From positions 24,293 to 88,292 of IMG/VR virus record IMGVR_UViG_3300045988_164842: a stretch of 64,000 nt of DNA. The stretch is one strand, 5' to 3'. Source of the DNA: a virus. Within the stretch, counting starts at the first letter, position 1; every line of letters begins with the position of its first letter. The position numbers and the translations under genes are program-made. A model generated the notes under the pieces. That model was not told the origin of the DNA. It searched no databases and saw nothing but the letters and a program-made list of their open reading frames with translations. Shown one piece after another: positions 20,831 through 36,166 of the stretch.

Positions 20831-21093
20831 CCCTTTTTGAAAAATTTTTTTGATTTTTTCAGGGCGTTTGACTCTCCCCATAGCCGCCCGGGTTTTTTGT
20901 TTTCCCTGACTGTGGTTATAGTATACCACGCCCCCACCCTGATTTATACCACTTTAAAATAACATTCTATGAACTTTATATTAATATACAACACTTAGCC
21001 CGTAAAGTGTTAATTATCTATACAGTTGAACGGCTAACCGTTGAATAATACCATATTAATTGCTAATAAAAGTAAAAGCAAGGGTGTTCTTGT

Positions 21094-21122
21094 ATTATAT
21101 CAGAAATAACAATAAATGTAAT
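21094..21122 (-). promoter_or_regulatory. extended -10 promoter firing leftward
   Basis: ATTACA (21122-21117), 17 nt, TGATATAAT (21102-21094) on the minus strand. Confidence 0.45.
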
Positions 21123-21628
21123 TGCTATTTTTTTTGTAATAGGAGGTGAACAAGTGTTAACATTTTCCCAGAGCTGGATTGTACTACTCTAACTAATACA
21201 GTTTATGAACAATTTATGAATTAGTTAAGTTTCAACGATATTTACAATAATAGTAAAATAGATAACTTGTTAATATCTGTAAGACTTGCATAAGGAAAAT
21301 AATAGAAACAACGTGTAATACATATTACACGCGGTTTTAGGCGTATATGGGGCGTGTATTGAAATAACTGTAAAAATAAAGCAGCTTAGAGAACGATACA
21401 GGTATTCAAAAACTCATGTCTTATTTCTCAAATTGAAATCTCTACAAGTACTTCAAAATTTCCACAAATCAAATAAGATTTTTGAGATTATAAGAATAAA
21501 AAATCAGTCTGATACATTTAGGATTTAGGAGTAATCAGTATTGTAAAATGCGTAAAATAAATGATAACTCCGATGGCTTATGGGAAATATTGAATATATA
21601 ATCTTGTTATTATGTTGGCTCGTAAAGA

Positions 21629-21818
21629 GTAATGATTGCAGAGGTATTCAGGAAGTGAGATTAAGAACTATCAGTCTCAAAGGTCTTCCAGAATTGCAGG
21701 TAATATTTTTTTTAAAAAAATACAAATTGGACGTAACGAATTGCAGGAGACTAATAAAAGAGCAGGTCATATATTTCAAAAAATATCACACAAGAAAAGA
21801 AAGTAAGGATTGCAGAAG
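21629..21818. repeat. iteron-like dispersed repeats (4 copies of ATTGCAG core)
   Basis: GTAATGATTGCAGAGG (21629-21644), CCAGAATTGCAGGTAA (core 21693-21699), GTAACGAATTGCAGGAG (21733-21749), GTAAGGATTGCAGAAG (21803-21818). Confidence 0.6.
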
Positions 21819-22057
21819 TCTTTGGAGATTCAGTTCTTACAGGCTTATAAGCTGTGTGTTTGTGTTCTATCGGGAAGTTTTCTGTATCTTGTTTCTGCTT
21901 GGGATTTTTTCTTATGAAAAAATTTTTTCTTGCTTTTTCGGGAGGTTTGCAACATCGAGAGGTAAATTGTAAACTTTCTGTTAAGTATATTGACGTGATA
22001 AACCACGCATTTACGGGCTTTGTGAGCATACAAAAAGTTCCTTAATAATTTGGAAAC

Positions 22058-22086
22058 TTGAGTTTTTGTCAGTTTTGTGATATAAT
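22058..22086 (+). promoter_or_regulatory. strong extended -10 promoter for the rightward arm
   Basis: TTGAGT (22058-22063), 17 nt, TGATATAAT (22078-22086), about 190 nt upstream of the helicase ATG. Confidence 0.65.
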
Positions 22087-22282
22087 AAAAACAGACGAAG
22101 AGAAGAAGCTGACGGAATAGCAACAGAAGTTAGAGAGCTTCTTTTCTTACTTAATGGTTCGTAGGAGTAGAATATAAGGTATAGGTGTTTCCGGCACAAA
22201 AACCTCTACAACCAACGTATCTATGGGCTTTATGAGCATTTTTTTTAAAAACCCTCAGTGTCACATTTGAAAGGAGCATAAA

Positions 22283-23761
22283 ATGACCTATATTTCGCAA
22301 TTAAACTTCAAAAACAACATTGTTCCTCACAAACTCAATTTGCTTTATGCAGGTTGCGGAACAGGAAAGACAGAATGGGCAACAAGAAAAGTGTTTCAGG
22401 ATTTCCCTGACATCAAACCTTGCGAAACACTTCTCGTTGTTCCTAAAACGTGGATTGCAAAACAACAGGCTGAGAAAAGGAATGTCTACAGGTATGTCAG
22501 CTCAGAAAGAGCGATGTCAGATGAAAATAAGAAATGGCGTGACTACTGGAATGGTGTTTCTGATGAAGTTGACAACGAGAATGTTGTCAATGTTTTGACT
22601 TATGCAACCCTTATCAATATTCTTCGCAATCCAGAAAGCAACGGACGTTTACCTTTTGAGAGGATAAAGCTTGTAATCATTGACGAATGTCATTCTCTTT
22701 TTACTGAAACTTACATGACTGATTTGAATGTTATGAATCTTTGGCTTAACATGGCTATCAAAACAACAGATACTTTATTTATCGGTATGAGTGCAACTCC
22801 TATGCTTATAAAAGAGTATGCAGAAAAAGTAATTTGTAGTCCGGTAAATCAGGTCAACAAGGAAGTTATAATGAACTATACAGCAGAAAATCTTATTATA
22901 ACCGACAAAGAAACCATCCCGTATATGCTTCATAGCGGTTTTCTTACAGGCAGAACGCTAATAATGTGCAATTCCCTTGAAGAATGTAAATGTCTTTCGT
23001 ATGTTCTCAGTGACTCTGCTTATATTGTTAGTGAGTACAACAATGAATACGCACCAGACATGGCTGAGATTACAGATTATATTTTAAAGAACAACAGCAT
23101 TCCTGATACATTTAAAGGCAAGAAACTTAAAGTTCTTCTCTCTACGGCTGTCCTTAGAGAGGGGATTACTTTCAAAAAAGATTGTGGTATTGAAAATATA
23201 ATCTGTATGTCGGGTTGTGATGTAAACATTATTCAGATTGCTGGAAGATGCCGCTACAACATCAAAAATCTTATTGTCGTAAAGCCATTGACTATATCGT
23301 CTAATACAATTGATTACGTCAAAAAGAAGGAAATGCAGTTCAGGGATTTTTGTAAAGGCAGGTACACAGATAATGGTTGGTTCGATGGTATAAAACACAT
23401 TCTTTCTTTTAACGATATCAAGAAAATTCAGTATAAAACAAAGGAAGACTTCTTTTGTGGAGATACATATAACATACCAAAAAACAGCAAGGCATTATTA
23501 AAAAAATCAGTTGCTGAAAAATTAAATGCGTACATCGAAAGAAATTTAAAAGGGAAATTCGTAACAGAAAAAGAAAGAAAAGAAGCTGTCAAATTCATGT
23601 GTGAAAACTCAATTCTTTCTGGCGACCCTGACAAAATAACACCACAAGCCTTTTATAAATTCATTGAAACAAATACCCCATACACCTTAGAACCAGAACG
23701 AAAAAGAGTTGATGGCAGATTAAAACGTGGTTGCTCTTTTCGCAAGAAAAGGAGTAAATAA
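22283..23761 (+). CDS. SF2 (DEAD/DEAH-box type) helicase
   Basis: Walker A GCGTGKTEW, DEAH-like box VIIDECHSL; AAAGGAG SD. Confidence 0.8.
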   Translation: MTYISQLNFKNNIVPHKLNLLYAGCGTGKTEWATRKVFQDFPDIKPCETLLVVPKTWIAKQQAEKRNVYRYVSSERAMSDENKKWRDYWNGVSDEVDNENVVNVLTYATLINILRNPESNGRLPFERIKLVIIDECHSLFTETYMTDLNVMNLWLNMAIKTTDTLFIGMSATPMLIKEYAEKVICSPVNQVNKEVIMNYTAENLIITDKETIPYMLHSGFLTGRTLIMCNSLEECKCLSYVLSDSAYIVSEYNNEYAPDMAEITDYILKNNSIPDTFKGKKLKVLLSTAVLREGITFKKDCGIENIICMSGCDVNIIQIAGRCRYNIKNLIVVKPLTISSNTIDYVKKKEMQFRDFCKGRYTDNGWFDGIKHILSFNDIKKIQYKTKEDFFCGDTYNIPKNSKALLKKSVAEKLNAYIERNLKGKFVTEKERKEAVKFMCENSILSGDPDKITPQAFYKFIETNTPYTLEPERKRVDGRLKRGCSFRKKRSK

Positions 23762-24234
23762 TGACTGCGGTACGATTATTTCAGGAAAATGAAGGTCTTG
23801 TTCACTATGTGCTCAATCACTACACACTGAAGCCTTTTTCTTATAAGCTCGGTTATACCTATGAAGACTGGACTTCCGTAGGACGTGAAGGGCTGTGGAA
23901 AGCTTCTAAAGAGTACGTGAGCAAAGATACGACATATGCATTCAGCACAATAGCTTGTAACCACATTCAGAACAACATACGGCAAGAACTAAGAAAGAAA
24001 AGAATTGCCTTGTGTCCTTTAGAAGAAAACATGATAATCCCAAAAGATAGCTTTGACGAAACACTCTTTTCAGTCAAAGAGATTGTAGGCGAAAAAGAGT
24101 ACAATATTTTACTGGACTACTACGGTCATAAATACACTTTCGAGTATTTGAGTGAGAAATACGACATGACAAACGCTCAACTCAAAAAACTTTTGAACAC
24201 ACTTCCGAGAAAAATCAGAAAGGAGTTCTCTTGA
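23761..24234 (+). CDS. sigma-70-family sigma factor (regions 2 and 4 only)
   Basis: ENEGLVHYVLNHY..EDWTSVGREGLWKASKEY..YAFSTIACNHIQNNIRQELRK (region 2) and a C-terminal HTH (region 4). The start overlaps the helicase stop (TAATG). Confidence 0.75.
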   Translation: MTAVRLFQENEGLVHYVLNHYTLKPFSYKLGYTYEDWTSVGREGLWKASKEYVSKDTTYAFSTIACNHIQNNIRQELRKKRIALCPLEENMIIPKDSFDETLFSVKEIVGEKEYNILLDYYGHKYTFEYLSEKYDMTNAQLKKLLNTLPRKIRKEFS

Positions 24235-26928
24235 ATGACTAATAGGAATATCATGGTCTACAAATTTGAAAGTCAGTTTCTCAAAGAGCATAACTATAAG
24301 CTCAATCTTTCCTTTGATGAAGCTGAGAGTTGCGGTCAGATTATCAAGATTGCCGATAATCAGTTTCTAAGAACTATCCGCAGGTTTACACTTCATACTA
24401 TCAATTTTCAGAGAGTTGAAAGACTGTATCACGAAAGAGATATCTTATCCAAGAAAAATTGCGATGAAGAAAGAAGACTGACTGTTACAAGCCGTATTAA
24501 TCGCAGTTTGTTTGTTCCTGAATACATGGAAGTCTCCATGACGACAAATTCTCAGTACAAAGAAATCATCAAAAAGAGAATTACTCTTAATGGCAAAGTG
24601 TATAGAAGACTTTCATGTTCCGCAGGACAAGCAAGGAACGAAACTGTTATCTTTTGTTCTGAAGAAATTATTTCCGATGTGAAGAAAGCTATTGACAATG
24701 ACAGAAAACCTATTCCCGTTGCTCCGTCAAAGTACAACGCCTATTTTGGTTTAGCAGGTTCCGCAACTCAGATTGTCAGTGAGCCAAGGTTCATTGTGGT
24801 GAAAGACTTTGAGAACGAAACATCTTTTAAATGTCATTGGGTGGAAGAAGCAGGCGACAATGAAGACGATATTATTTCCGAAAAGGTGATAACCCAAAAG
24901 ATGAATCGAACAGACGGCATGGGGCTTATATCTCCCAGGCTTGCTAAAAAGTGGGCGAAAGAATTAGACCTTGACTATGTTCCAAGTCAGTTCGGAATAA
25001 GACAAGCTTTTCTCAAAGGTATGTTATGCGTGTTCGATATTCACACTTTCTGTAAAGAAAAGAACCATGGTAACTACATGATAGAAACCGTATATGGCGA
25101 AAAGGTAGACATACGAAATTACGATATTATCTTTTCTGAATCTCAGTTCAAGTTGTGGAATGCGTATGATAATGAAAAAGACTATGCGGATAAATGTCGG
25201 AAGAATAAGCTTTACTGGGGTGTTCCACAATACGCTCCGAAAGAGTGCAAGAACACGCTGAAAATGAATTATCAATTCCTGCAAACGCTTAATATCAAAG
25301 ATGAAGACATTCCTCTCATATGTAATCAAACAGTTGAGTGGATAAGAGGGGTTTCATATGCGAACCCTGCATACATATTTCTGTTTTTCTTAGGGGCAAA
25401 CATAACCGAGCAGAAAATAAAAACGTTTTTGCAGTACCAAGGAAACTGGTGGCTGAAAGCGTTAATAGCAAATCCAGACCTTATGGTTCAGGATAAATAT
25501 ATCCAAAGTCAGATTAAGAGGCTTATAAAGAAAAAAATCCATGACACATACATAGGCGAAATTTTTCTTGAAGGTAATTTCCAGATACTTGTGTCAGACC
25601 CTTATGCATTCATGCAATCAGTGTGTGGTATTACACCTACTGGCTTACTGAAAGAAAATGAATACTACTCAAACTACTGGAATGAACGTGGCGTATCTCT
25701 TGTTGATGGTATGCGTTCCCCTCTCACATTTCGTTCTGAACACGTTTTAATGAATCTTATAAAGAATGATGAAACTGAAAAATGGTACAAACATTGCAAG
25801 ACTGGCGTCATTCTGAACTGGCATGGTCATGATTGCGTAAACTTCGCAGGAAGCGACTTTGACCTTGACATTCTCGCAACCACCTGTAATGATGTTGTTC
25901 TCAGGTCTACATACAAAAACGAGCTTCCTGTAGGGTATGATGTAAGCAAACCTGTAAAGATACTTCCTACGGAAGAAGACCTTATAAAAGCTGACTTCTT
26001 TTCTTTTGGTTCTATCATAGGCAGTATTACAAACAAGAGCAGTAACGCCTATGCATTGCTCGCAAATTTAGAAAGAAACCCTGAAAAGAATAAAGAACAG
26101 ATTCAGATTGTGTATAGCAGGCTTATTCAATGCTGTAAGGCTCAAGGAAAACAAATCGACAAAGCGAAAATAGGTCAAAAGGTTAAAGGTATCCCAAACA
26201 TCTGGATAAAGTATATTCCACATGATGACAGGGATACTGATGAAATTACTCAACAAAAAGACCTTATAAATACTTGCTTACTTGACAAACCTCCTTATTT
26301 TTTTATTTATCGTTATCCTGATTATTACACTAAGTATAGAAAATATATTAAAAATGCTGACGGATATTGCAAAAAGAAGTACCATGCAAGTTTGAATACG
26401 GTTTCTCAGAACCCTGATACAGCGGATAAGAAGAAATTCATTAATAGTTTTTACAAGAAAATGCCTGTGGTCGATAGCCCAAGTTCAATGAATAAGATTT
26501 GCCACTATCTCGAAAACACTGTAATGGATATTCAGAGTGAAACCACCATTAATCCAGATATAAGCAAATATCTTAGAGATAATACCGTGTTTGTATCAAA
26601 GGAGAGGGAAGACGAAATAATTTCAGCCTTTGTTGTCTTTCTTAGCGAAATCAGTACAACTTTAGGAAACAAGCACTCTGATTCGGATATTGTAAAAGTG
26701 TTCCGTGAAATCTACAGAAACTATTGTATGTCTGATGTTGTGAATGTTCTTGTCGATAATTTTTACAACAGCAAAGCTTCAGTCTTGTGGATAGTTATCG
26801 GTAAAAATCTTCTTCATAATCTTTGTGTTAATACAGTTGGAGAGGAAAATGTAATGATACCTTTTCCAGACGAACAAGGTGAAATCGAGTACATGAACAA
26901 AAGATACGGTTGGAGGGTCGTGGAATGA
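24235..26928 (+). CDS. single-subunit two-barrel RNA polymerase candidate (YonO / cellular RdRP-like)
   Basis: 897 aa; ordered motifs GIRQAFLKGMLCVFDI, VDGMRSPLTFRSEHV, NFAGSDFDLDIL (Asp triad codons 25855-25869). Confidence 0.65.
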   Translation: MTNRNIMVYKFESQFLKEHNYKLNLSFDEAESCGQIIKIADNQFLRTIRRFTLHTINFQRVERLYHERDILSKKNCDEERRLTVTSRINRSLFVPEYMEVSMTTNSQYKEIIKKRITLNGKVYRRLSCSAGQARNETVIFCSEEIISDVKKAIDNDRKPIPVAPSKYNAYFGLAGSATQIVSEPRFIVVKDFENETSFKCHWVEEAGDNEDDIISEKVITQKMNRTDGMGLISPRLAKKWAKELDLDYVPSQFGIRQAFLKGMLCVFDIHTFCKEKNHGNYMIETVYGEKVDIRNYDIIFSESQFKLWNAYDNEKDYADKCRKNKLYWGVPQYAPKECKNTLKMNYQFLQTLNIKDEDIPLICNQTVEWIRGVSYANPAYIFLFFLGANITEQKIKTFLQYQGNWWLKALIANPDLMVQDKYIQSQIKRLIKKKIHDTYIGEIFLEGNFQILVSDPYAFMQSVCGITPTGLLKENEYYSNYWNERGVSLVDGMRSPLTFRSEHVLMNLIKNDETEKWYKHCKTGVILNWHGHDCVNFAGSDFDLDILATTCNDVVLRSTYKNELPVGYDVSKPVKILPTEEDLIKADFFSFGSIIGSITNKSSNAYALLANLERNPEKNKEQIQIVYSRLIQCCKAQGKQIDKAKIGQKVKGIPNIWIKYIPHDDRDTDEITQQKDLINTCLLDKPPYFFIYRYPDYYTKYRKYIKNADGYCKKKYHASLNTVSQNPDTADKKKFINSFYKKMPVVDSPSSMNKICHYLENTVMDIQSETTINPDISKYLRDNTVFVSKEREDEIISAFVVFLSEISTTLGNKHSDSDIVKVFREIYRNYCMSDVVNVLVDNFYNSKASVLWIVIGKNLLHNLCVNTVGEENVMIPFPDEQGEIEYMNKRYGWRVVE

Positions 26929-27692
26929 TAGACTTTAAGTATGACGAATACGCATACGCTGAACATATAATCGAGAGTGGCTTTACTTCTCAGCTTTCAA
27001 ACGAGTTAAGAATTGTCGCCACATACTATCGCAGGATTTTCGATTACAAGCAAGTCGAGGTTAAAGCAAAGCTTACAGACTTATGCCGTAAACATATCAA
27101 TTCTTTTCATGTCGGGAACTACTACAAAGCAATCAATAAAGCTATTTCTGTTGCTTTCAAGGACAACGCAAGACTCGTAAAGATAAGAGAGATTCCGATT
27201 TTTCAAAAAGAACTTGACTATATAAACCAACCTGATTTATCCACAAATGAAAAAAGAGTTCTGTTTACGTTGCTTGTAATGCATAAAATCAAAAAAGAAA
27301 GATACCGTCAAATCTACCAAAAGGAAAGTCAAAGCAATGTTTATTTTGCTAAGAACGGTCGCTTCACTGAAATCAAGAAACTTAGCAATATTCCGCAAAG
27401 TCTTGATATCGACCTTGATGTGTTTTACTCTCTTACTTTGAAAGGTTATATCAATCCACTGTATAACGGAAATATTCAACTTCTTTTCCTTGACAAATGT
27501 ATTTCTTCTGAAGCTCCTGTTGCTATGATTTCAGATTTCCGAAACCTCGGCTATAGGTTTGAAATTCTTACAGGCAACAACAAATACATTGTTTGTCAGC
27601 ATTGCGGAATACCTTGCTTGAAAAGGAATAATTCTGCTATCTACTGTTCTGAAAGCTGTTGCTTACAAGCGAAGCAAGGTCAATGTTGTTAA
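26925..27692 (+). CDS. hypothetical protein with C-terminal zinc ribbon (255 aa)
   Basis: ATG 26925 lies 7 nt after GGAGGG and overlaps the RNAP stop (ATGA). C-terminus CQHCGIPC..YCSESCC. Confidence 0.7.
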   Translation: MIDFKYDEYAYAEHIIESGFTSQLSNELRIVATYYRRIFDYKQVEVKAKLTDLCRKHINSFHVGNYYKAINKAISVAFKDNARLVKIREIPIFQKELDYINQPDLSTNEKRVLFTLLVMHKIKKERYRQIYQKESQSNVYFAKNGRFTEIKKLSNIPQSLDIDLDVFYSLTLKGYINPLYNGNIQLLFLDKCISSEAPVAMISDFRNLGYRFEILTGNNKYIVCQHCGIPCLKRNNSAIYCSESCCLQAKQGQCC

Positions 27693-27825
27693 TTGTTTCT
27701 AAATTGTGAACAAATCCAGAAAACTGAAACTGCCTTATAATATCCTCTTTTCTGCTGTATTTAGACGATTATGTATTCAATACATATCTATGATAGACTA
27801 AAAATAGCAGGAAGTGGGTGTTAAA

Positions 27826-28104
27826 ATGGCTCAGTATGCGTGCATATATGGTGTTGGTGAATGCGTTGGTTGTGGTGAATGTTCGAGTAGCTTGAAATGC
27901 TCTGAATGTGGAAAGCCTATAACTAACGAAAGCCAACACCTTTGTTTTAATTGCTGGCAAAGTAATAAGATGAGGGATATGAGGTTTCTTGAAGATTTTG
28001 CAGATTACTGTGATGTTGAATACACCTTACCTGAATGTGTGGAAGTCTTTCAGGATGAATTTGAAGAATTTTGTAGAGAGGGCTATCATGAAGGTGTTGA
28101 ATGA
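27826..28104 (+). CDS. small Cys-rich (zinc-ribbon-like) acidic protein (92 aa)
   Basis: CVGCGEC..CSECGKPI..CFNCW; ATG 27826 preferred over the track GTG 27814. Confidence 0.6.
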   Translation: MAQYACIYGVGECVGCGECSSSLKCSECGKPITNESQHLCFNCWQSNKMRDMRFLEDFADYCDVEYTLPECVEVFQDEFEEFCREGYHEGVE

Positions 28105-28209
28105 TTGGGGGTGTGGACTTGAGTGTTGTAAGTATGATACCCGGCGTTATGTCTGTGATATTGTTTGTCGCAGGGTGTATCTATTTGTTTAAAGATGAAG
28201 ATTAACAAA

Positions 28210-28291
28210 GCTACCATGGTGAAATAGGAAGACACAGCGGACTTTAAGTTCGTTGAGGAAACTCATGTCGGTTCAAGTCCGACTGGTGGTT
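28210..28291 (+). tRNA. class II (long variable arm) tRNA with anticodon UUA - ochre (UAA) suppressor type
   Basis: Hand-folded. Acceptor GCTACCA/TGGTGGT (2 G-U pairs); U8, A14, G18G19; D stem GTG/CAC. Anticodon stem GCGGA/TTCGT with loop CTTTAAG (TTA at 28244-28246). Variable arm TGAG-GAAA-CTCA; T arm GTCGG-TTCAAGT-CCGAC. No encoded CCA. Confidence 0.65.
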
Positions 28292-28319
28292 CTTAGATTT
28301 AAGAAAGGAAGTTCGTGTT

Positions 28320-28481
28320 ATGAGTGGAATATCGGTCAGCAAACTTCTTGCTGAAATCTACAATAAAAACCCAGAAAAATTTGAGATAACTCTTGTAAGA
28401 GATAAATACGTCGTTGATGTTACGATGTTCTTGTCGAAGGAAGAATTATCTGAGATGCTGGATGAAAAATTTAAAGTGTAA
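28320..28481 (+). CDS. hypothetical protein (53 aa)
   Basis: Below the track cutoff; ATG follows AAAGGAAG; MSGISVSKLLAEIYNKNPEKFEITLVRDKYVVDVTMFLSKEELSEMLDEKFKV. Confidence 0.5.
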   Translation: MSGISVSKLLAEIYNKNPEKFEITLVRDKYVVDVTMFLSKEELSEMLDEKFKV

Positions 28482-28495
28482 AGGAAGTGTAATAA

Positions 28496-28810
28496 ATGAC
28501 CCAGAAAGAATTTGTAGAAGCTGTTCAGGAAACACTCAAGAGAGAAAACTATAAAGTTTCTCAGGTTTCCTTAAACGCTCTTGTAAATGCAATAGGAGAA
28601 ACAATAGTACATTGTATCGCAAATGGAGAGAACGTTCGTATACCTTATGTAGGCAACTTCTCCGCCAAGAAAAGAAAAGGTTCAAAAACTGTCTGCCATT
28701 TTGGCGAAAACATTGGCAAGGTTTTTGAAGTTCCTGCAAAGATGAAGCCTAACTTTTCTCCGGCAAAAGCATACACAGATGTATGTAATGAAATGAAGTG
28801 TGAGGAATAA
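28496..28810 (+). CDS. HU/IHF-family DNA-binding protein
   Basis: MTQKEFVEAVQETL..SLNALVNAIGETI..GENVRIPYVGNFSAKKR..PAKMKPNFSPAKA, the typical HU pattern. Confidence 0.8.
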   Translation: MTQKEFVEAVQETLKRENYKVSQVSLNALVNAIGETIVHCIANGENVRIPYVGNFSAKKRKGSKTVCHFGENIGKVFEVPAKMKPNFSPAKAYTDVCNEMKCEE

Positions 28811-29955
28811 TGGCTACTCAGGCGTTGATTGGTGGTAATCGAAAAAGAGTGGTATCGAGCAAGTGTAGTATGTGTGGAAAGTCTTATACAAACCAAGAAG
28901 ATAATTTCCCGTATACTGCTTCTGTTCTTTACAAGCACAATAACTACCGTGCAACTATCTGCTACAATTGCCTTGCGAATGAATTGTATCCATACTACTT
29001 CAAAGAATTTGGTAACGCAAATGAAACTATGCGTAGGATATGTATGCATATTGACGTTTATTATAGTGATACTATCGTAAACACATCGGCTGTAGCAAAG
29101 AAAAGCAAACCTATAGAAAAAATAAAGGCTTACATCTCTCATGCAAACCTTGTTTCTTATAAAGGGAAAACTTTCGACACAACAATTGACGAAGAAGAGG
29201 GTTACACATATGATAAAGATGATGTTCGTACATCTCTTACACTTGTAAACAAAAGAAAGATGGCAACTCAGATTACATCACTAACTTCTGAAAATGATAA
29301 TCTCAAAGCTGAAATCACTTCCCTTAAAGATGAAGTTGACACTTTGAGAAAATCTGCCGAGTTGAAAAACCTTGATTCAGATGAAGCTCAGAACTTCAAG
29401 AATTGGGGTGAGGGGTTATCACCCTCGGATTATAAGGTTCTCAATGTTCAATACCAAGAGTGGATAGAGAAAAACATTGTGGAAGATAAAACAAGAGAAG
29501 TGCTTGTAAGGAAAATTTGTATCCTTTCTTTACTTAGCGATAAAGCTTTGAAAGAGGGTAATTTTAAAGAATACAACGATATTAATAAATGCTTTGTAGA
29601 AGCTTTAAAACTTGCTTGTCTTTCACCACAACAGATGGACGATATGAAAACAAGTGAGGGTGTGACTTACGGCACACTGATTAAAAGGTTTGAACAAGAT
29701 GAACCGTTACCTGAAATCTCTGATAAGTTCAAAGATGTGGACGGCATTGTGAGATATACCACTGTTTATTTTATCGGACATTTATGTGCTATGCTCGGAA
29801 TAAAGAACCGTTTCTCTGATGATTACCATAAAGAAATGGAAAAGTACAAAACCATGCTTGACGGTTTTGAGAATTCCACATCAGAGGAAGTTTTTGACTA
29901 TTTATCTGAGAAGGGTTTTCCGACCGAGATAGGTGGTGAGGACAATTCTCAGTAA
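28810..29955 (+). CDS. hypothetical protein, possible small terminase / packaging factor
   Basis: 381 aa; N-terminal CSMCGK..CYNC zinc finger and a central coiled coil. The call rests only on position directly upstream of terL. Confidence 0.4.
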   Translation: MATQALIGGNRKRVVSSKCSMCGKSYTNQEDNFPYTASVLYKHNNYRATICYNCLANELYPYYFKEFGNANETMRRICMHIDVYYSDTIVNTSAVAKKSKPIEKIKAYISHANLVSYKGKTFDTTIDEEEGYTYDKDDVRTSLTLVNKRKMATQITSLTSENDNLKAEITSLKDEVDTLRKSAELKNLDSDEAQNFKNWGEGLSPSDYKVLNVQYQEWIEKNIVEDKTREVLVRKICILSLLSDKALKEGNFKEYNDINKCFVEALKLACLSPQQMDDMKTSEGVTYGTLIKRFEQDEPLPEISDKFKDVDGIVRYTTVYFIGHLCAMLGIKNRFSDDYHKEMEKYKTMLDGFENSTSEEVFDYLSEKGFPTEIGGEDNSQ

Positions 29956-31672
29956 TCTCGATATTGTATATTTGAAATGCAAAAAAGGTCTCGGTAAATG
30001 GACGAAATTCTACAGACATAACCCACATAGGCTTGCTTTAGAATACTTTGGTATGAAGTGGCTTACACCTATGCAGTGTATTCTAATTGACATTGTTCTG
30101 AAATTTCCGTATCTGATAATGATAGCTTCACGAGGCATGGGCAAGACAATTCTTCTTGCCGTATGTATCTGTATAAAAGCTGTTCTCTATCCGGGAATAA
30201 AAATTGTTATATCGGCAGGTAAACGCCGACAGAGTCTTGAAATTATTTTGAAAATTCAGAGTTTCTGTATGGATAGTGAAAATCTCAGGCGTGAAATCGA
30301 AGATATAAAGGTTGGTCTTGCTGATGGTGGTATTGTATTCAAGAATGGTTCAAGTGTAACAATCGCTACTGCTTCTGAAAATGCTCGTGCAATAAGAGCG
30401 AACTGGATTATTTATGATGAGTTTGTCAAGATACCAAAGATAATCATAGACACTGTTATAAGAAAATTCAAAGCCGGAGTTCGTGTACCTGTCTTTAAAA
30501 CAAAACCTGAATATAAAAATTACCCAGATGAAGAAAACTGTGAAACTTATATTTCGTCTGCTACATATAAACATCATTGGGCGTGGTTAAAGTTCAAAGA
30601 CTTTTTTAATCTCATGGTTCAAGGAAAAGACTATGCGGTCTTAGGTTTTCCATGGCAATTTGCGGTTGCTCAGGGTTACTATCCTTTAAAGCAAGTTATA
30701 GACGAAATGAATGAAGCAAGCTTTAATAGTGTTTCATGGTCTATGGAAATGGATAGTCTGTTCTATGGTGAAAGCGAAAACGCTTTCTTTTCATTCAACG
30801 AGTTCAGCAAGAATAGGGAAATCGTTTTGCCTGTATATCCAAAAGAATGTTATAAAGACCTAAGAGATAGTAAGTTTCGATATATCGAAAAGCAAGATGG
30901 TGAAATCCGCCTACTTGTAATGGACGTAGCTACGCAAGGTGGCGACAAAAACGACAACTCGGCTTATGTTCTGTATAGGCTTATCCCCGATGAGAACAAC
31001 CAGTATACCCGTTATATTTCCTATATAGAAGCTGTAAATGGAGGACACTCCCTTGACCAAGCTTTGAGGTTCAAATATCTTTACTATAATCTCGATGTTG
31101 ACTATGTAGGTATTGATGCTTTAGGTGTCGGTACTGGTGTATTCGACAATCTCGTTATCGAAATCAGAGATGAAGAAAAGGATATTGTGTATCCTGCATG
31201 GAACACGGTTGATGATGATAAAATGTCAGGGCGTTGTAAGATTAATGACGCTCCCAAAATTATCTATTCAATCAAAGCAAGTCAAATATTTAATAGTGAA
31301 TGTGCTGTTCGCCTTAAAGATGATTTGCGTAGAGGAAAAGTCAAATTGCTCATAGGAGAGGAATCAGGTTCTGAAGAACTTGAAAAGATAAAAGGATTTG
31401 AAGAACTTTCTATTGAAACACAAACTCTTTTCAGGCTTCCCTATATTCAGACAACCGCTCTGGTGAATGAAGCCGTCAATCTTTCTTATGAAGTTCAGAA
31501 TAACAACATCAAAGTAAAAGAGGCTTCGGGTATGAGGAAGGATAGATATTCTGCGTGTTCATACGGAAATCAACTTGCTTCTGAAATTGAAAAAAATTTA
31601 TACTTACCAAACGAAGCAACAAGTCTTAGTTCGCTTATAAGAATGAGGACACCTGTGTACGAAAGGCGGTGA
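29933..31672 (+). CDS. terL: terminase large subunit
   Basis: Walker A-like ASRGMGKT, Walker B WIIYDEF, C-terminal nuclease-size domain. Start uncertain (GTG 29933 or TTG 29972). Confidence 0.8.
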   Translation: MVRTILSNLDIVYLKCKKGLGKWTKFYRHNPHRLALEYFGMKWLTPMQCILIDIVLKFPYLIMIASRGMGKTILLAVCICIKAVLYPGIKIVISAGKRRQSLEIILKIQSFCMDSENLRREIEDIKVGLADGGIVFKNGSSVTIATASENARAIRANWIIYDEFVKIPKIIIDTVIRKFKAGVRVPVFKTKPEYKNYPDEENCETYISSATYKHHWAWLKFKDFFNLMVQGKDYAVLGFPWQFAVAQGYYPLKQVIDEMNEASFNSVSWSMEMDSLFYGESENAFFSFNEFSKNREIVLPVYPKECYKDLRDSKFRYIEKQDGEIRLLVMDVATQGGDKNDNSAYVLYRLIPDENNQYTRYISYIEAVNGGHSLDQALRFKYLYYNLDVDYVGIDALGVGTGVFDNLVIEIRDEEKDIVYPAWNTVDDDKMSGRCKINDAPKIIYSIKASQIFNSECAVRLKDDLRRGKVKLLIGEESGSEELEKIKGFEELSIETQTLFRLPYIQTTALVNEAVNLSYEVQNNNIKVKEASGMRKDRYSACSYGNQLASEIEKNLYLPNEATSLSSLIRMRTPVYERR

Positions 31673-33168
31673 GATGTATAGCAAAGAAAATAAAAAAGAA
31701 TAATGACGTAGACAACCTTGAAAATGGGTTGCCTTTTTCTGTTTATGAGAAACTGCAAAAGTTAAATATTCAGGACGCAAATAGCGGCTACACCCCTTTT
31801 GAACATCATCGTTGCGGTTTCTTCCCTATGAAAAGAGATAAGCTTTTCAGATTACTGAAAAATCCATACGTCAATTTCAAGGCTCTTATTAATCTGAGCA
31901 TTGATTTGTATTACGGAAATATCATGTATCGGCGGCTTTGTGACACTTTAGCTGATATGATGTTGTATTCATATACAATCGCACCTACAGGAAATGCTTA
32001 TGAAAGAACGCCTGCGAATATAGCAAAGTGGCAAAAGGCTTATGCTACAGTCACAAAGAAACTCGAAGCTATGAATATCCAGCACAATGCAAATACAATA
32101 GCAAGAGTGGTGGTTCGTGAGGGTTGTTATTATGGTGTAAGCATAAGTAGTAAAATAAGTAACTTTATGCTGTACAGGTTTCCACATGAGTATTGCAAGA
32201 TAACTTCTTTCGAGGACGGTGTTCCTTTATACGCCTTAGATTTAACGTATTTTTCAGACAAAGAAATTCTGATTAATTCTATAGGTGGAGAACTTCTTGA
32301 AGCTTATACAGCTTTCAAAACAAATCAAAGAGAGAGATGGTATGAAATCAGCTCAAAGATTTCTGTCTGTATACTTGCTGATAACAGCACCCTCAGACCT
32401 TTGCCATTGTTTTGTGGTATTTTCCCAGACCTTTATTATCTCGATGATTATAAAGACCTTGCGAAGAACAAGAGAGAGATTGACCTCTATAAGTTAATTT
32501 CTATGAAAATTCCTCTTGACTCTAAAGGAAATCTTATACTGCAAAATAAGTTTCTTACAGATTGCTACGACCAGACGGCAAACCAACTTCCCTCACAGGT
32601 AGGGTTGTCTATGTCACCTTGCAGTATTGACACAGTAGATTTCGATTCCTCGAACTCTACGACTGAGGACGTTACAGACAAAGCTACGAGGGATTTATAT
32701 AGTACCGCTGGTATATCCTCTTTTCTTTTTAATAATGAGAATGCGAGTAGTAGTGCGTTACTTCAAAGTGTGAAAAACATGATGTCTTTTGTCAGACCCA
32801 TTATGAAGAATATTGAAAACTGGATTAATCGTTGTTTGAAACTGCAAGCAGGGGTAAACTTCAAGGTAGTCTTTCAGTATGTTTCTATCTATACAAGAGA
32901 AACATATATTGCCGAACTAAGAAAAGATATGCAATATGGTTTACCTGTAAAGAGTGCTTTAGCTACATTGGAAGATATTCCGGCAACAGACCTGACAGGC
33001 ATGATGTTTCTTGAAAATAACGTGCTTGACATTCGCAGTCAACTTACGCCACCTGCAACGTCAGCTACTACCACTGTTGATGATATACAATCAGGTCGCC
33101 CTGAAAGCGATATGCTGTCCGATAGTGGTGAGCAAACAAGAGAAAGCGAGAGTAATGCCGAAAGATGA
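31669..33168 (+). CDS. portal protein candidate
   Basis: 499 aa immediately after terL; acidic/Ser-rich C-terminal tail. The start (GTG) is poorly supported. Confidence 0.6.
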   Translation: MRCIAKKIKKNNDVDNLENGLPFSVYEKLQKLNIQDANSGYTPFEHHRCGFFPMKRDKLFRLLKNPYVNFKALINLSIDLYYGNIMYRRLCDTLADMMLYSYTIAPTGNAYERTPANIAKWQKAYATVTKKLEAMNIQHNANTIARVVVREGCYYGVSISSKISNFMLYRFPHEYCKITSFEDGVPLYALDLTYFSDKEILINSIGGELLEAYTAFKTNQRERWYEISSKISVCILADNSTLRPLPLFCGIFPDLYYLDDYKDLAKNKREIDLYKLISMKIPLDSKGNLILQNKFLTDCYDQTANQLPSQVGLSMSPCSIDTVDFDSSNSTTEDVTDKATRDLYSTAGISSFLFNNENASSSALLQSVKNMMSFVRPIMKNIENWINRCLKLQAGVNFKVVFQYVSIYTRETYIAELRKDMQYGLPVKSALATLEDIPATDLTGMMFLENNVLDIRSQLTPPATSATTTVDDIQSGRPESDMLSDSGEQTRESESNAER

Positions 33169-33371
33169 TAAAGGTAATATCTGAAGAACTCAACAAGAAG
33201 CTACAAGCTAAAGGCTTTGTTCCTCTTTGTGTAGAAAGGTATACAAACGGAAACGGATATGTATACCAGAACAATTCTGAAATTATTGACTTTTTAAAGT
33301 TTAACAACTTTAAAGGTCAATTTTTTTTCTGCCAAAAACTCAAATTTGAGAAAGGTGGTGAGAAAGAATGA
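33165..33371 (+). CDS. hypothetical protein (68 aa)
   Basis: ATG overlaps the portal stop; coupled to the next gene. Confidence 0.55.
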   Translation: MIKVISEELNKKLQAKGFVPLCVERYTNGNGYVYQNNSEIIDFLKFNNFKGQFFFCQKLKFEKGGEKE

Positions 33372-34546
33372 AAAAAGCGAACCTGAAATTTCAGGCCACC
33401 TTAACGCCTGTAAAAGCGATTAATCCTGAACTTACTTTGTGTGAGTGCTTGGTTCAGTCTATAGGAAAAAACAACAACTACACGAATTTCAGCTATGACA
33501 ATGTACTCAAAGCGTTGCCTACGCTTGATGGTATTCCTGTCATCGGACACGTCATGCAGAAACCTGACGGTACGCCGTATGTTGGCGGACATGATGAAAG
33601 TGTTGTCGTAGATGATGATGGTAACGTCAACGTGCAGGCTGTAACCGTTCCATATGGTTTTGTATACCCTGAAACTTCTCAGATTGTAAAAATCGTAGAG
33701 AACGGTGAGGTTAAAAATTACGTCAAGTGTGATGTTGTTCTCTGGACTGGACGATATCCTGAAATTGTTGAAGCAGGCTACAATAACTCAATTGACTACT
33801 GGCAGAGTATGGAGATTGAGTATTCAAATGCTGTTGATTTACAGGAAGATAAAAGATATCTGGATATTGTTGATTACTGGTATCAGGCTTTATGTCTTCT
33901 TGGAAAATCAGATACAGCAGATTACAACACAGAGCCTTGCTTTCCGTCTGCGAGCGTAAAGGCTTATAGTCTTTTGACAGACGAAACCTTTAAGAAAGAA
34001 TTTGAAAAATTCAAGCAGATTGTTAGCAAGAGTTACAAGAAAGAACCAGAGGTGAAAAACATGAGCGATATAAATACACTTGTAGCAGAGCCGTCTACAG
34101 AAACAGACACAAACAAAGGCTATTCTGACCTCGAAAGTGTTTACAAAGCAAAAATTGAATTGCTTGAACAGCAGTACAAGGCACTTTCAAAGGAGTTTGA
34201 AACTTACAAATCAGAGTACACAACCCCGGATTCCGAAGTGCAGGAACTTAGAGATTACAAAGCAACAAAGGAATTTGAAGAACACAAGGCGGAAATGGAA
34301 GCTGTCTTTGCGGACTTTGAAGACCTTAAATGCTTTACAGAATTTAAAGCTCTCATGGCTGATTATTCGGCTTATGAAACGGCAGACGCACTCAGAAATG
34401 CTTGCTATGTAATTAGGGGGAAGAACGCCCAGACGGTTACATATTCAAAGCAGGTACAGACGCAGAAAGTTCCTGTTTATGACAATCCGCCAAAGGACAC
34501 TGACGATGACCCTTACGGTGGAGAATTTAAGGAATATTTTGAGTAA
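33368..34546 (+). CDS. scaffolding protein candidate
   Basis: 392 aa; long C-terminal coiled-coil segment (KAKIELLEQQYKALSKEFETYKSEY..); positioned between portal and capsid. Confidence 0.55.
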   Translation: MKKANLKFQATLTPVKAINPELTLCECLVQSIGKNNNYTNFSYDNVLKALPTLDGIPVIGHVMQKPDGTPYVGGHDESVVVDDDGNVNVQAVTVPYGFVYPETSQIVKIVENGEVKNYVKCDVVLWTGRYPEIVEAGYNNSIDYWQSMEIEYSNAVDLQEDKRYLDIVDYWYQALCLLGKSDTADYNTEPCFPSASVKAYSLLTDETFKKEFEKFKQIVSKSYKKEPEVKNMSDINTLVAEPSTETDTNKGYSDLESVYKAKIELLEQQYKALSKEFETYKSEYTTPDSEVQELRDYKATKEFEEHKAEMEAVFADFEDLKCFTEFKALMADYSAYETADALRNACYVIRGKNAQTVTYSKQVQTQKVPVYDNPPKDTDDDPYGGEFKEYFE

Positions 34547-34558
34547 AGGAGAAGATAT

Positions 34559-35065
34559 ATGGCAAATAAGCACATTGTTTGTATAACTGACGCTATGTCA
34601 GGTACAGATGTTCGTACGGATATTCAGTGTGGTAAGTATTTCTATAATGACCTTACATTCATGGATATTGACAATGGAAGATTTCTCAAGATTGATAAGC
34701 TTATAAACAGAAATATGTACAAGCTTGTTCCTGCGGAAGATACAACGCCTATTGACCAGTTGGCTCTTGTTGCTTCACCTGAATTTCTTCCAGACCCACG
34801 TTATCAGTGTCTTGATGATTTCTACAACCCGGCAGGTGAAGCTATTCGTTTCTACAGACTGAAACCGCATGACAAATTCAGCCTTAGCAAACTCGGCTTT
34901 CTTACTACACCAAAGGTTGGCGATAAGGCGTTTCTCAGCAAAGGTTCTCCGTCAAGCCTTTCCACTGCAACGACAACATCAAGTGATACAACTGCAATCG
35001 GGGAAATCATTGACGCATTCATTCTCGGCGGTATTCAGTTTTATACTGTCGAAGTCGGAAAGTGA
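34559..35065 (+). CDS. head-module protein (168 aa), function unknown
   Basis: Strong AAAGGAG SD; lies between the scaffold and capsid genes. Confidence 0.6.
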   Translation: MANKHIVCITDAMSGTDVRTDIQCGKYFYNDLTFMDIDNGRFLKIDKLINRNMYKLVPAEDTTPIDQLALVASPEFLPDPRYQCLDDFYNPAGEAIRFYRLKPHDKFSLSKLGFLTTPKVGDKAFLSKGSPSSLSTATTTSSDTTAIGEIIDAFILGGIQFYTVEVGK

Positions 35066-35076
35066 GAGGTGATAAT

Positions 35077-36102: not shown

Positions 36103-36116
36103 TAGGGTCTATATAC

Positions 36117-36147: not shown

Positions 36148-36166
36148 AAGAAAGCGAGGGAGAAAT

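What the first reader, a model, noticed from the sequence alone, without database searches (positions are those of the whole stretch)
28210..28291. Class II tRNA with anticodon UUA: an ochre (UAA) suppressor in a genome that uses UAA as a normal stop
The hand fold has all canonical landmarks, and the D arm and long variable arm resemble bacterial tRNA-Leu. However, the 7-nt loop CTTTAAG places TTA at positions 34-36, so it would read UAA. The discriminator is U and no CCA is encoded. Many genes here end in TAA, including HU, the tape measure and the major tail candidate, and all large ORFs are intact under code 11. The tRNA is therefore not explained by genome-wide recoding. It may promote partial readthrough of phage or host genes. 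TAA-reading suppressors seem much rarer than TAG or TGA ones in phage reports I recall.
Basis: partly seen in the sequence, partly recalled or inferred. Interest (0 to 1): 0.7.

Follow-up and report, generated by a model that had tools for sequence, protein, structure and literature searches.

The report
Phage tRNA-Leu turned ochre suppressor
A gut phage that uses the standard genetic code carries a well-folded tRNA whose anticodon reads the stop codon UAA; it descends from an ordinary leucine tRNA still present in the sister phage, has been kept intact across many samples, and probably causes only weak stop-codon readthrough whose purpose is unknown.

Summary
Window 28210-28291 (+) is a class II tRNA with anticodon UUA. 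ARAGORN calls it tRNA-Stop and Rfam tRNA scores it 43.4 bits. It is the only tRNA found in about 74 kb of this roughly 88-kb circular SPbeta-like phage of gut Firmicutes.

The genome uses code 11. Coding density is 92.8%, TAA ends 40 of 70 genes, and no gene has an in-frame TAA.

New here: at least 13 contigs (93-100% identical) from about a dozen samples carry the same UUA anticodon. The sister lineage (RNAP 82% identical) has tRNA-Leu(UAA) at the same place. The suppressor differs from it, and from three other tRNA-Leu(UAA) genes compared, by A35U, A38G and A73U. All stem changes keep pairing, including G1-C72 to G1.U72 to A1-U72. The cloverleaf is therefore under selection and this is not an assembly error.

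G38 breaks the A36A37A38 MiaA motif, and U73 removes the usual Leu discriminator. TAA is not avoided in the suppressor lineage. I therefore predict a weak, late-expressed UAA (and UAG) suppressor.

Charging, the inserted amino acid and any target are untested. One candidate is the YomX-YomW junction, which is in frame only in the suppressor lineage. This is a new, well-documented member of a known but uncharacterised kind.

The parts
28210..28291 (+). tRNA-Sup(UUA): a class II (Leu-derived) tRNA of 82 nt, with no encoded CCA
   Evidence: ARAGORN tRNA-Stop (tta). Rfam RF00005 43.4 bits. The cloverleaf is the MFE fold apart from extra closure of the anticodon loop. The same gene occurs in 13 other loci, from at least 12 further contigs, of the lineage.
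28244..28246 (+). Anticodon TTA (U34 U35 A36), inside the loop CTTTAAG (28242-28248)
   Evidence: It is invariant in all suppressor-lineage copies. The sister lineage and three other tRNA-Leu(UAA) genes have CTTAAAA, so A35U and A38G are derived.
28291..28291 (+). Discriminator U73 (derived from A73), next to the G1.U72 pair (28210 with 28290)
   Evidence: Alignments. All four tRNA-Leu(UAA) compared have A73. All suppressor copies have U73 and U72. Four contigs restore a Watson-Crick pair with A1.
28101..28205 (+). Small hydrophobic-peptide ORF (34 aa) whose TAA stop lies 4 nt before the tRNA 5' end. With the next part, it shows that the tRNA is embedded in a polycistronic unit.
   Evidence: Translation. 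The core peptide is conserved in the sister lineage. The gene is called in L006-L008 and L051.
28320..28810 (+). Downstream 53-aa ORF and HU-like gene, co-oriented with the tRNA and starting 28 nt after it. They are followed by YonG, the large terminase subunit and the portal (the late module).
   Evidence: No terminator-like site lies between 27500 and 29000.
24235..26928 (+). YonO-like single-subunit RNA polymerase, 1.3 kb upstream. In SPbeta the homologue transcribes the late operon. This is context for when the tRNA is expressed.
   Evidence: PF05183 and phrog_8308. Homology to SPBc2 yonO. Forrest et al. 2017, PMC5467207.
38069..38074 (+). Candidate readthrough site: the YomX stop TAA is directly followed, in frame, by the YomW ATG
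   Evidence: The junction is in frame with zero spacer in the suppressor-lineage contigs (the window's own 88-kb contig and two diverged ones). It is out of frame, with a 1-nt spacer, in the tRNA-Leu lineage. This is one evolutionary event and only suggestive.

Best explanation
This is a genuine, selectively maintained phage tRNA gene. It arose from a phage-borne tRNA-Leu(UAA) by the anticodon change A35U, so it now pairs with UAA and, by U34 wobble, with UAG. It sits inside the plus-strand operon between the YonO-like RNA polymerase and the packaging and structural genes. I infer that it is cut out of that transcript by RNase P and RNase Z and then receives CCA. I also infer that it acts during middle or late infection as a low-efficiency ochre suppressor. 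Low efficiency is predicted for three reasons. G38 destroys the A36A37A38 motif needed for i6A37 and can pair with C32. U35 removes the A35 determinant for 2'-O-methylation of U34, as defined for the E. coli enzyme TrmL. U73 with a weak 1-72 pair replaces the canonical Leu determinants. The inserted amino acid is unknown. Leucine is the default guess, because bacterial LeuRS ignores the anticodon and the tertiary core and A20a are retained. Shown here: the fold, the anticodon, descent from tRNA-Leu(UAA), persistence across samples, pair-preserving evolution, and the absence of recoding. Inferred only: expression, charging, weak readthrough, and any benefit to the phage.
For: Two predictors agree on the tRNA and its anticodon. 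At least 13 contigs from about a dozen samples, 93-100% identical to the window in DNA, all carry TTA. The syntenic gene in the sister lineage (RNAP 82% identical in protein) is tRNA-Leu(TAA), with A73, a perfect acceptor stem and the loop CTTAAAA. The nearest database tRNAs are also Leu(TAA). Within the suppressor lineage all 6 polymorphic sites are transitions in stems and all keep pairing. These include G1.U72 to A1-U72 and U3.G70 to U3-A70, and no loop position varies. In a simulation using the flanking transition/transversion ratio, all six mutations fall in stems without breaking a pair with P = 0.0003. All 5 stem differences from the Leu orthologue also keep or gain pairing, and there are no indels. 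The genome is standard code: 92.8% coding, no split genes, and no in-frame TAA in any credible gene of any relative. No terminator lies around the tRNA, and the flanks 28143-28209 and 28292-28319 are invariant. MiaA strictly needs A36A37A38, and A35U blocks TrmL (PMC4615657). Loss of i6A lowers UAA suppression in yeast (PMC5699536). A73U is tolerated by at least one bacterial LeuRS (PMC6614811).
Against: There is no direct evidence of transcription, processing, charging or readthrough. The Rfam score falls from 55.6 bits (Leu orthologue) to 39.7-44.2 bits. The predicted MFE fold closes the anticodon loop to 3 nt. A73 is a major LeuRS determinant in E. coli and Aquifex (PMC9976931), so the tRNA may be poorly charged or uncharged. 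TAA use is the same in both lineages, 12 of 24 versus 11 of 24 orthologous genes. Extensions after TAA have the length expected by chance. The genome therefore shows no footprint of living with a suppressor. Conservation of the anticodon itself cannot be told apart from recent common ancestry, because divergence within the lineage is at most 7%.
Confidence: 0.55

Rival explanations
1. It is a tRNA-shaped RNA that no longer decodes. After losing its Leu identity (A73U, weak 1-72 pair) the gene is kept only because its cloverleaf is an RNase P / RNase Z cleavage module. That cleavage separates the upstream (RNAP, small ORFs) part of the polycistronic transcript from the downstream (HU, packaging, late) part. 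The anticodon is then free to drift, and UUA is an accident.
For: The tRNA is wedged between ORFs, 4 nt after one stop and 28 nt before the next start, with no terminator. The identity and modification determinants are exactly the ones lost. There is no TAA avoidance and no TAA-dependent gene. The anticodon stem has accumulated 2-3 G.U pairs. This reading explains how a UUA anticodon is tolerated where 57% of stops are TAA.
Against: RNase P and RNase Z mainly need the acceptor/T-arm minihelix. Yet the D arm, variable arm, anticodon stem and every loop nucleotide are also conserved within the lineage: 0 of 36 unpaired positions vary, while flanking sequence shows 5-12% segregating sites. U33, purine 37 and the 7-nt loop remain canonical.
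Confidence: 0.22
2. It is a dedicated trans-acting recoding factor. The late-expressed suppressor drives programmed readthrough of particular TAA stops, producing minor fusion or extended virion proteins. The best candidate is YomX-X-YomW at 38069-38074. Others are the 41376-41858 ORF running into the tape measure, and YonD-like running into the 168-aa ORF.
For: YomX TAA and YomW ATG abut in frame in the suppressor-lineage contigs (the window's own 88-kb contig and two diverged ones). The tRNA-Leu lineage has a 1-nt spacer that puts YomW out of frame. The tRNA lies at the head of the late module.
Against: This rests on a single indel event, with a 1 in 3 chance of being in frame. The other two in-frame junctions are identical in the tRNA-Leu lineage, so they do not depend on a suppressor. 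TAA-ATG adjacency is ordinary translational coupling. No fused YomX-YomW homologue was seen.
Confidence: 0.1
3. It is a recently inactivated tRNA-Leu pseudogene with no function, on its way to loss.
For: The covariance score is lower and more pairs are G.U. A73 and the MiaA motif are lost. TTA makes up a smaller share of Leu codons in the suppressor lineage (61 of 361 versus 90 of 358), as if the Leu(UAA) supply were gone.
Against: Eleven of eleven stem substitutions preserve pairing. There are no indels, although the flanking intergenic DNA is unalignable or full of indels between the lineages. One change (A1) restores a Watson-Crick pair. The gene is retained in every sampled genome across up to 7% divergence.
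Confidence: 0.1
4. It is an artefact, or marks genome-wide recoding: either a sequencing or assembly error in a tRNA-Leu(UAA) gene, or a phage that reads TAA as sense.
For: None beyond the unusual anticodon.
Against: The identical anticodon loop is found in at least 13 contigs from different studies and assemblers. Coding density is 92.8% under code 11, treating TAA as sense only fuses neighbouring genes, and no orthologue has an in-frame TAA.
Confidence: 0.02

Closest known systems
tRNA-Leu(UAA) of the sister phage lineage (L003/L004/L005/L054, Logan SRR22974099 and others), and phage tRNA-Leu(UAA) genes in general (S-SSM4, Zobellviridae KZY1)
   Same: Same locus, between the 96-aa ORF plus small peptide ORF and the 53-aa ORF plus HU. 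70 of 82 nucleotides are identical. Same class II architecture, T arm, variable arm and D stem, and neither encodes CCA.
   Different: The anticodon is UUA instead of UAA. G38 replaces A38, U73 replaces A73, and G1.U72 or A1-U72 replaces G1-C72. There are extra G.U pairs in the anticodon stem, and the Rfam score is 12 bits lower.
Classical ochre suppressors made by one anticodon change (E. coli supC/supG/supB, B. subtilis sup-3, phage T4 psu tRNAs). This comparison is from memory of the genetics literature (Eggertsson and Soll 1988, cited in PMC8386662).
   Same: A single-base anticodon change turns a sense tRNA into a UAA/UAG reader. These suppressors are typically weak. One class (the T4 psu tRNAs) is phage-encoded.
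   Different: Those were selected in the laboratory to rescue nonsense mutants, and they keep the parent's identity elements and the A37/A38 context. This one is natural and fixed in a wild lineage. It carries additional changes at identity and modification sites, and no nonsense mutation is visible for it to rescue.
Suppressor tRNAs of stop-codon-recoded phages (crAss-like, Lak, Jade/Agate and others; Borges et al., 10.1101/2021.08.26.457843; PMC9523058; PMC12386605)
   Same: A phage-encoded tRNA that reads a stop codon, in a gut phage, placed so that it could act on late genes.
   Different: Those read TAG or TGA and accompany many in-frame stops in late genes. Here the codon is TAA, which is the genome's commonest stop, and there are no in-frame stops. 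No TAA recoding was found in a large jumbo-phage survey (PMC13037316).
Uncharacterised tRNA-Sup(UUA/TTA) annotations in phages that are not described as recoded: Klebsiella phage phiKp24 (PMC8386662) and Bacillus megaphage G (PMC12484599)
   Same: A predicted UAA-reading tRNA in a cultured phage that is not described as recoded. Its function is unknown.
   Different: Those are single annotations among many tRNAs in jumbo phages. phiKp24's is said to have an Arg-type body. Here it is the only tRNA detected in the approximately 74 kb of the genome that I scanned. Its parent is identified, and its population variation shows structural selection.

Membership tests
tRNA (Rfam RF00005) | Covariance-model score at or above the gathering threshold over the full model | tested here: met
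   43.4 bits against a threshold of 29, model positions 1-71. The other lineage copies score 39.7-44.2 bits.
tRNA (Rfam RF00005) | Cloverleaf with a 7-bp acceptor stem, a 5-bp anticodon stem, a 5-bp T stem, a 7-nt anticodon loop with U33 and purine 37, and U8, A14, G18G19 and T54-T55-C56...A58 | tested here: met
   Read directly from the sequence. 99.1% of pair cells across 5 haplotypes are standard pairs, against 27-55% when the partners are slid.
tRNA (Rfam RF00005) | Expressed, end-processed, CCA-tailed and aminoacylated | not testable with these tools
   No expression data were available. Only operon context is known.
Bacterial class II tRNA-Leu | Long variable arm, 3-bp D stem, D-loop with A14, A15, G18G19 and A20a | tested here: met
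   Identity elements are as listed in PMC9976931.
Bacterial class II tRNA-Leu | Discriminator A73 | tested here: not met
   U73 in all suppressor copies. A73 in all four tRNA-Leu(UAA) compared.
Bacterial class II tRNA-Leu | A Leu anticodon (NAG or YAA, with A35) | tested here: not met
   The anticodon is UUA, with U35.
Bacterial class II tRNA-Leu | Common descent with tRNA-Leu genes | tested here: met
   The syntenic orthologue in the sister lineage is tRNA-Leu(UAA) and is 85% identical.
Nonsense (ochre) suppressor tRNA | Anticodon complementary to UAA in a canonical 7-nt loop | tested here: met
Nonsense (ochre) suppressor tRNA | Inserts an amino acid at UAA in vivo (measurable readthrough) | not testable with these tools
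   This needs a reporter assay or proteomics.
Nonsense (ochre) suppressor tRNA | Anticodon-loop context that supports efficient decoding (A37 modifiable to i6A through A36A37A38; no 32-38 Watson-Crick pair) | tested here: not met
   The loop is CUUUAAG. G38 breaks the motif (PMC4615657), and C32-G38 pairs in the MFE fold. This lowers the expected efficiency but does not disprove activity.
Stop-codon-recoded phage (alternative genetic code with a cognate suppressor tRNA) | Many in-frame copies of the reassigned stop in genes, and higher coding density under the alternative code | tested here: not met
   92.8% coding under code 11. Treating TAA as sense only joins neighbouring genes. There are no in-frame TAA in orthologue alignments apart from one doubtful ORF. 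Gene calls are normal on the rest of the 88-kb genome.
Stop-codon-recoded phage (alternative genetic code with a cognate suppressor tRNA) | Depletion of the reassigned codon as a terminator | tested here: not met
   TAA is the commonest stop, 40 of 70. Its use is unchanged relative to the tRNA-Leu lineage, 12 of 24 versus 11 of 24.

The most novel reading that the evidence does not exclude
The phage supplies its own weak ochre suppressor at the onset of late transcription in order to set a fixed low ratio of readthrough products from ordinary TAA stops. The leading candidate is a YomX-YomW fusion at 38069-38074, which is in frame only in the suppressor lineage. This would be a trans-acting, virus-encoded equivalent of programmed frameshifting or readthrough, operating inside a standard-code genome. 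The co-evolved changes at 38, 72 and 73 would then be tuning of efficiency and identity rather than decay.
Probability: 0.1. Interest if true: 0.8.

Novelty: new member of a known kind. Interest (0 to 1): 0.5.

Why it matters
Phage suppressor tRNAs are currently understood almost entirely through TAG and TGA recoding. UAA readers in standard-code phages are annotated now and then but never explained. This locus offers a clean natural comparison. Two sister phages differ at one tRNA gene: one has tRNA-Leu(UAA) and the other has a UUA derivative with remodelled identity and modification sites.

The population data show that the fold is being maintained. That makes three questions directly testable with a handful of constructs:
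- Can a phage tolerate or exploit suppression of its own main stop codon?
- What do positions 38 and 73 do to suppressor strength and identity?
- Is a tRNA body ever retained only as an RNA-processing signal?

If the tRNA is functional and orthogonal-like, with U73 and an unusual 1-72 pair, it could also interest genetic-code engineering. If it is inert in translation, it is a caution against reading every tRNA-Sup annotation as recoding.

Tried and rejected
- **Close relatives in annotated phage collections:** megablast of 24 kb against INPHARED found nothing. IMG/VR pattern and protein scans found nothing. Relatives came only from Logan, ENA and JGI assemblies, reached through protein look-ups.
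- **Genome-wide or local TAA recoding:** rejected.
- **Genes split by TAA:** the in-frame neighbours 10532-11575 / 9365-10516 and 16682-17329 / 16349-16645 / 15707-16225 are separate genes. PHROG profiles end or begin at the ORF boundaries.
- **TAA avoidance or tandem stops as a footprint of a suppressor:** not seen.
- **A suppressor tRNA as a general feature of SPbeta-like or YonO-bearing prophages:** rejected. Across 29 GTDB loci there is an assortment of sense tRNAs, or none, and no suppressor.
- **A phage-encoded aaRS, release factor or tRNA-modification enzyme to go with the tRNA:** none appears in the Pfam annotations of about 74 of the 88 kb.
- **The SPbeta 'unannotated ncRNA' at the start of the late operon as a tRNA relic:** no. 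It matches the DUF3800-VIII RNA motif.
- **An own sigma-70 promoter or terminator for the tRNA:** one weak promoter-like site, fewer than in shuffles, and no terminator.
- **Assigning the amino acid from identity rules:** inconclusive. U73 fits bacterial Cys, Gly and some Arg tRNAs, none of which matches the body or the anticodon. The U35-reading enzymes (Tyr, Lys) want A73.

Full report
**1. The observation**

Window 28210-28291 (+) is a tRNA gene. ARAGORN finds exactly one tRNA in the 64 kb, at 28210-28292, and calls it tRNA-Stop with anticodon tta. Rfam's tRNA model matches 28210-28291 end to end at 43.4 bits, against a gathering score of 29.

Read directly from the sequence, the parts are:
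- acceptor stem GCTACCA / TGGTGGT, with G1.U72 and U3.G70;
- U8;
- a 3-bp D stem with loop AAATAGGAAGA, containing G18 G19;
- anticodon stem GCGGA / TTCGT;
- loop C32-U33-U34-U35-A36-A37-G38;
- a long variable arm (GAG-GAAA-CTC);
- T arm GTCGG-TTCAAGT-CCGAC;
- discriminator U73, with no encoded CCA.

**2. The genome around it**

The window is an SPbeta-like phage. It has:
- a YonO-type single-subunit RNA polymerase (24235-26928; PF05183, phrog_8308), preceded by a sigma-like gene;
- an HU-like gene (28496-28810);
- YonG, the large terminase subunit, the portal, YonD, YonB, YomX, YomW and a YomU-like tube protein;
- a 2225-aa tape measure, a holin and a GH25 endolysin.

Look-ups of window proteins land on a single 88,292-bp contig (ena:ERZ27260692:k99_114274). 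Its two ends join across the window, so the genome is circular or terminally redundant and about 88.2 kb long.

The nearest cultured relatives by RNAP are Bacillus phage BUCT082 (43%), Enterocloster and Thomasclavelia phages, and C. botulinum phage c-st. The nearest genomes are Bacilli, Oscillospiraceae and Lachnospiraceae MAGs. An NrdD/NrdG pair points to an anaerobic host.

The code is standard. A simple non-overlapping gene set covers 92.8% of the window. Stops are TAA 40, TGA 26 and TAG 4. Opening TAA merely concatenates neighbouring genes. No further tRNA was found in the roughly 74 kb of the genome that I scanned. The Pfam annotations returned for the same stretch list no aaRS or release factor.

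**3. Relatives: the key result**

The RNAP has two close clusters in the protein database, one at 97% identity and one at 82%. Contigs of the 97% group, together with contigs found through the 53-aa ORF, the HU gene and a 22-nt tRNA pattern, give at least 13 contigs from about a dozen different samples and several studies. They are 93.3-100% identical to the window in DNA. Every one carries tRNA-Stop(tta) at the same place.

Contigs of the 82% group carry tRNA-Leu(taa) at exactly the same place, between the 96-aa ORF and the 53-aa ORF plus HU. The two genes align without gaps and match at 70 of 82 positions.

The Leu form has a perfect acceptor stem GCTACCA / TGGTAGC, A73 and the loop CTTAAAA. 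The same loop and A73 are found in three unrelated tRNA-Leu(UAA) genes. These are cyanophage S-SSM4, a Zobellviridae phage (the two best INPHARED hits to the window tRNA), and a Clostridia prophage.

So A35U, A38G, A73U and C72U are derived in the window's lineage. The suppressor is a mutated descendant of a phage tRNA-Leu(UAA). An assembly error is excluded.

**4. Is it still under selection?**

Among eight haplotypes compared there are four suppressor variants. Their six variable sites are positions 1, 28, 31, 40, 41 and 70. All six are transitions, all lie in stems and all keep a standard pair:
- G1.U72 becomes A1-U72 in four contigs. This completes a G-C to G.U to A-U series relative to the Leu form.
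- U3.G70 becomes U3-A70.
- The anticodon stem changes are C28-G42 to U.G, A31-U39 to G.U, G30.U40 to G-C, and G29-C41 to G.U.

None of the 36 unpaired positions varies. By comparison, the flanking ORFs have 12% segregating sites and the intergenic DNA about 5%.

I simulated six random mutations using the flanking transition/transversion ratio of 49:9. No pair is broken in 13% of trials. All six fall in stems without breaking a pair in 0.03% of trials. This is a post-hoc pattern, but it is the textbook pattern for a functional tRNA.

The five stem differences from the Leu orthologue likewise keep or improve pairing. There are no indels, although the DNA just downstream cannot be aligned between the lineages.

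I conclude that the cloverleaf is maintained by selection. Whether the anticodon itself is under selection cannot be decided at 7% divergence or less.

**5. What the derived changes predict**

- **G38.** The parent's A36-A37-A38 is the motif that MiaA 'strictly' requires for i6A37. A35 is a key determinant for TrmL 2'-O-methylation of U34, which also depends on i6A37 (PMC4615657). Loss of i6A lowers the efficiency of a UAA suppressor in yeast (PMC5699536). G38 can also pair with C32. The MFE fold closes the loop down to the three anticodon bases in all suppressor haplotypes but not in the Leu form.
- **U73 and the weakened 1-72 pair.** A73 is the main bacterial Leu determinant in E. coli and Aquifex (PMC9976931). 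It is dispensable for Streptomyces coelicolor LeuRS, where A73U keeps 88% activity (PMC6614811). Leucylation is therefore possible but uncertain. U73 otherwise belongs to bacterial Cys, Gly and some Arg tRNAs, none of which matches the rest of the molecule.
- **Rfam score.** It drops 12 bits relative to the Leu orthologue.

Together these changes predict a poorly modified, perhaps poorly charged, and hence weak suppressor.

**6. Does the genome show that it lives with a suppressor?**

It does not.
- In 24 orthologous genes the suppressor lineage ends 12 in TAA and the Leu lineage ends 11 in TAA.
- In-frame extensions after TAA have the length expected by chance, with a median of about 9 codons.
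- tblastn of all window proteins against every related contig finds in-frame stops only in ORF 21580-21972. That ORF lies in the divergent control region and is probably not a gene.
- One anecdote: the two TAA-to-TGA switches in the suppressor lineage are in the likely major capsid gene (YonB-like) and the 168-aa gene before it. The three TGA-to-TAA switches are in the helicase, a 260-aa gene and YonG. The numbers are too small to weigh.

**7. Expression context**

The tRNA lies 4 nt after the TAA of a conserved small hydrophobic-peptide ORF (28101-28205) and 28 nt before the 53-aa ORF. It has the same orientation as both, and there is no terminator-like site nearby. The 67 nt upstream and 28 nt downstream are invariant among eight haplotypes.

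[quoted passage not shown] The tRNA occupies the comparable RNAP-to-late-gene interval here. I therefore infer middle or late expression from a polycistronic precursor, excision by RNase P and RNase Z, and CCA addition. None of this has been shown.

**8. Candidate targets**

Three late-gene TAA stops are in frame with the next gene:
- YonD-like (33368-34546) into the 168-aa ORF;
- YomX (37121-38071) into YomW (38072-38554);
- the 41376-41858 ORF into the tape measure.

The first and third have the same in-frame arrangement, the same spacer length and the same TAA stop in the tRNA-Leu lineage, so they owe nothing to a suppressor.

The second differs. The suppressor-lineage contigs (the window's own 88-kb contig and two diverged ones) read GTG TAA ATG, which is in frame. 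The Leu lineage reads GTG TAA G ATG, which is out of frame. This is one indel on one branch, with a 1 in 3 prior of being in frame. It is a concrete thing to test and nothing more.

**9. Verdict on mechanism**

| Reading | Confidence |
|---|---|
| Real tRNA acting as a weak, late-expressed UAA/UAG suppressor derived from tRNA-Leu(UAA), amino acid unknown (Leu by default) | about 0.55 |
| tRNA body retained as an RNA-processing module with an irrelevant anticodon | about 0.22 |
| Dedicated programmed-readthrough factor | about 0.10 |
| Drifting pseudogene | about 0.10 |
| Artefact or recoding | about 0.02 |

**10. Comparison with what is known, and novelty**

It works like a classical ochre suppressor, in that one anticodon change turns a sense tRNA into a stop reader. 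It is not a member of the recoded-phage systems, because it fails their defining tests. It is no longer a canonical tRNA-Leu, because A73 and the anticodon are not met.

tRNA-Sup(UUA) has been annotated in phiKp24 (PMC8386662) and in phage G (PMC12484599), and was counted by Borges et al.. None of these has been characterised, and a large jumbo-phage survey found no TAA recoding (PMC13037316).

I file this as a new member of a known but unexplained kind. What sets it apart is an identified parent gene, a sister-lineage control and population evidence for structural selection. Interest is moderate, at 0.5.

Noticed in passing
L003 7838-8104 (also L004, L005, L054); absent from the window between 28292 and 28319: In the tRNA-Leu sister lineage an 88-aa Tad2-like (PF11195, anti-Thoeris family) gene sits directly after the tRNA. 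The window lineage lacks it. The interval between the RNAP and the late genes therefore looks like an accessory or anti-defence hot spot.
   Followed up: partly
window 28101-28205 (+): A small hydrophobic-peptide ORF (MIGGVDLSVVSMIPGVMSVILFVAGCIYLFKDED*) overlaps the stop of the 96-aa ORF (ATGA) and ends 4 nt before the tRNA. Its core is conserved in the sister lineage (MSVIPAIVSVILFVVGCVYLFANED**), where it ends in a tandem TAA TAA. In L002 an indel shifts the N-terminal part.
   Followed up: partly
window 28143-28209 and 28292-28319: The 67 nt upstream and 28 nt downstream of the tRNA have no SNP among eight haplotypes, although neighbouring ORFs show about 12% segregating sites. Part of the upstream block is the peptide ORF. 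It could also hold a promoter or processing signals.
   Followed up: no
window 59987-61802 (-): An IS607-like pair sits inside the phage, next to the replication initiator gene. It consists of a serine resolvase (201 aa, PF00239) overlapping a TnpB / OrfB_IS605 / Cas12f-like protein (410 aa).
   Followed up: no
window 61914-63716 (-), 8194-9102 (-); contig ena:ERZ27260692:k99_114274: The genome closes into a circle of about 88.2 kb. It encodes a Rep3_N plasmid-type initiator as well as a tyrosine integrase, and its RNAP is related to that of the C. botulinum plasmid-prophage c-st. It may be a phage-plasmid.
   Followed up: partly
L049 10105-10170 (SPBc2 NC_001884, between yonN and yonK): Rfam DUF3800-VIII RNA (RF03075, 47.5 bits, above gathering) lies just upstream of yonK. 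It is probably the 'unannotated non-coding RNA' that Forrest et al. 2017 mention at the start of the YonO late operon. There is no counterpart in the window.
   Followed up: partly
window 21580-21972 (+) and the 20378-22282 region: ORF 21580-21972 carries in-frame TAG and TAA in L001 and L043 and is only 49-65% identical there, so it is probably not a gene. It lies in the divergent region between the minus-strand and plus-strand modules, which includes an 892-nt stretch (20688-21579) in which I called no gene.
   Followed up: partly
window 22283-36655 versus L003 1796-16408: In 15 orthologous genes TTA makes up 61 of 361 Leu codons in the suppressor lineage and 90 of 358 in the tRNA-Leu lineage. 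Fisher's test on TTA plus TTG against the CTN Leu codons gives p = 0.05. GC content also differs (37.4% versus 35.6%), so the difference may reflect loss of the Leu(UAA) supply or just base composition.
   Followed up: partly
window 40940-41392, 41376-41858, 41874-48551 (+): Two overlapping ORFs precede the tape measure in the usual chaperone position, but the second is in the +1 frame rather than the -1 frame relative to the first. Its TAA is in frame with the tape-measure ATG 15 nt later. The TAA stop, the 15-nt spacer and the in-frame tape-measure start are conserved in the sister lineage.
   Followed up: partly
window 40467-40943 (+), 53445-54491 (+), 10532-11575 (-): There are oddly placed accessory genes. 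A RuvC-like resolvase sits inside the tail module. A PAPS-reductase-family gene lies between the LRR/PKD and Kelch-repeat tail-fibre-like genes. There is an AcrVA2-like gene here, with a second copy just beyond the window's right end.
   Followed up: no
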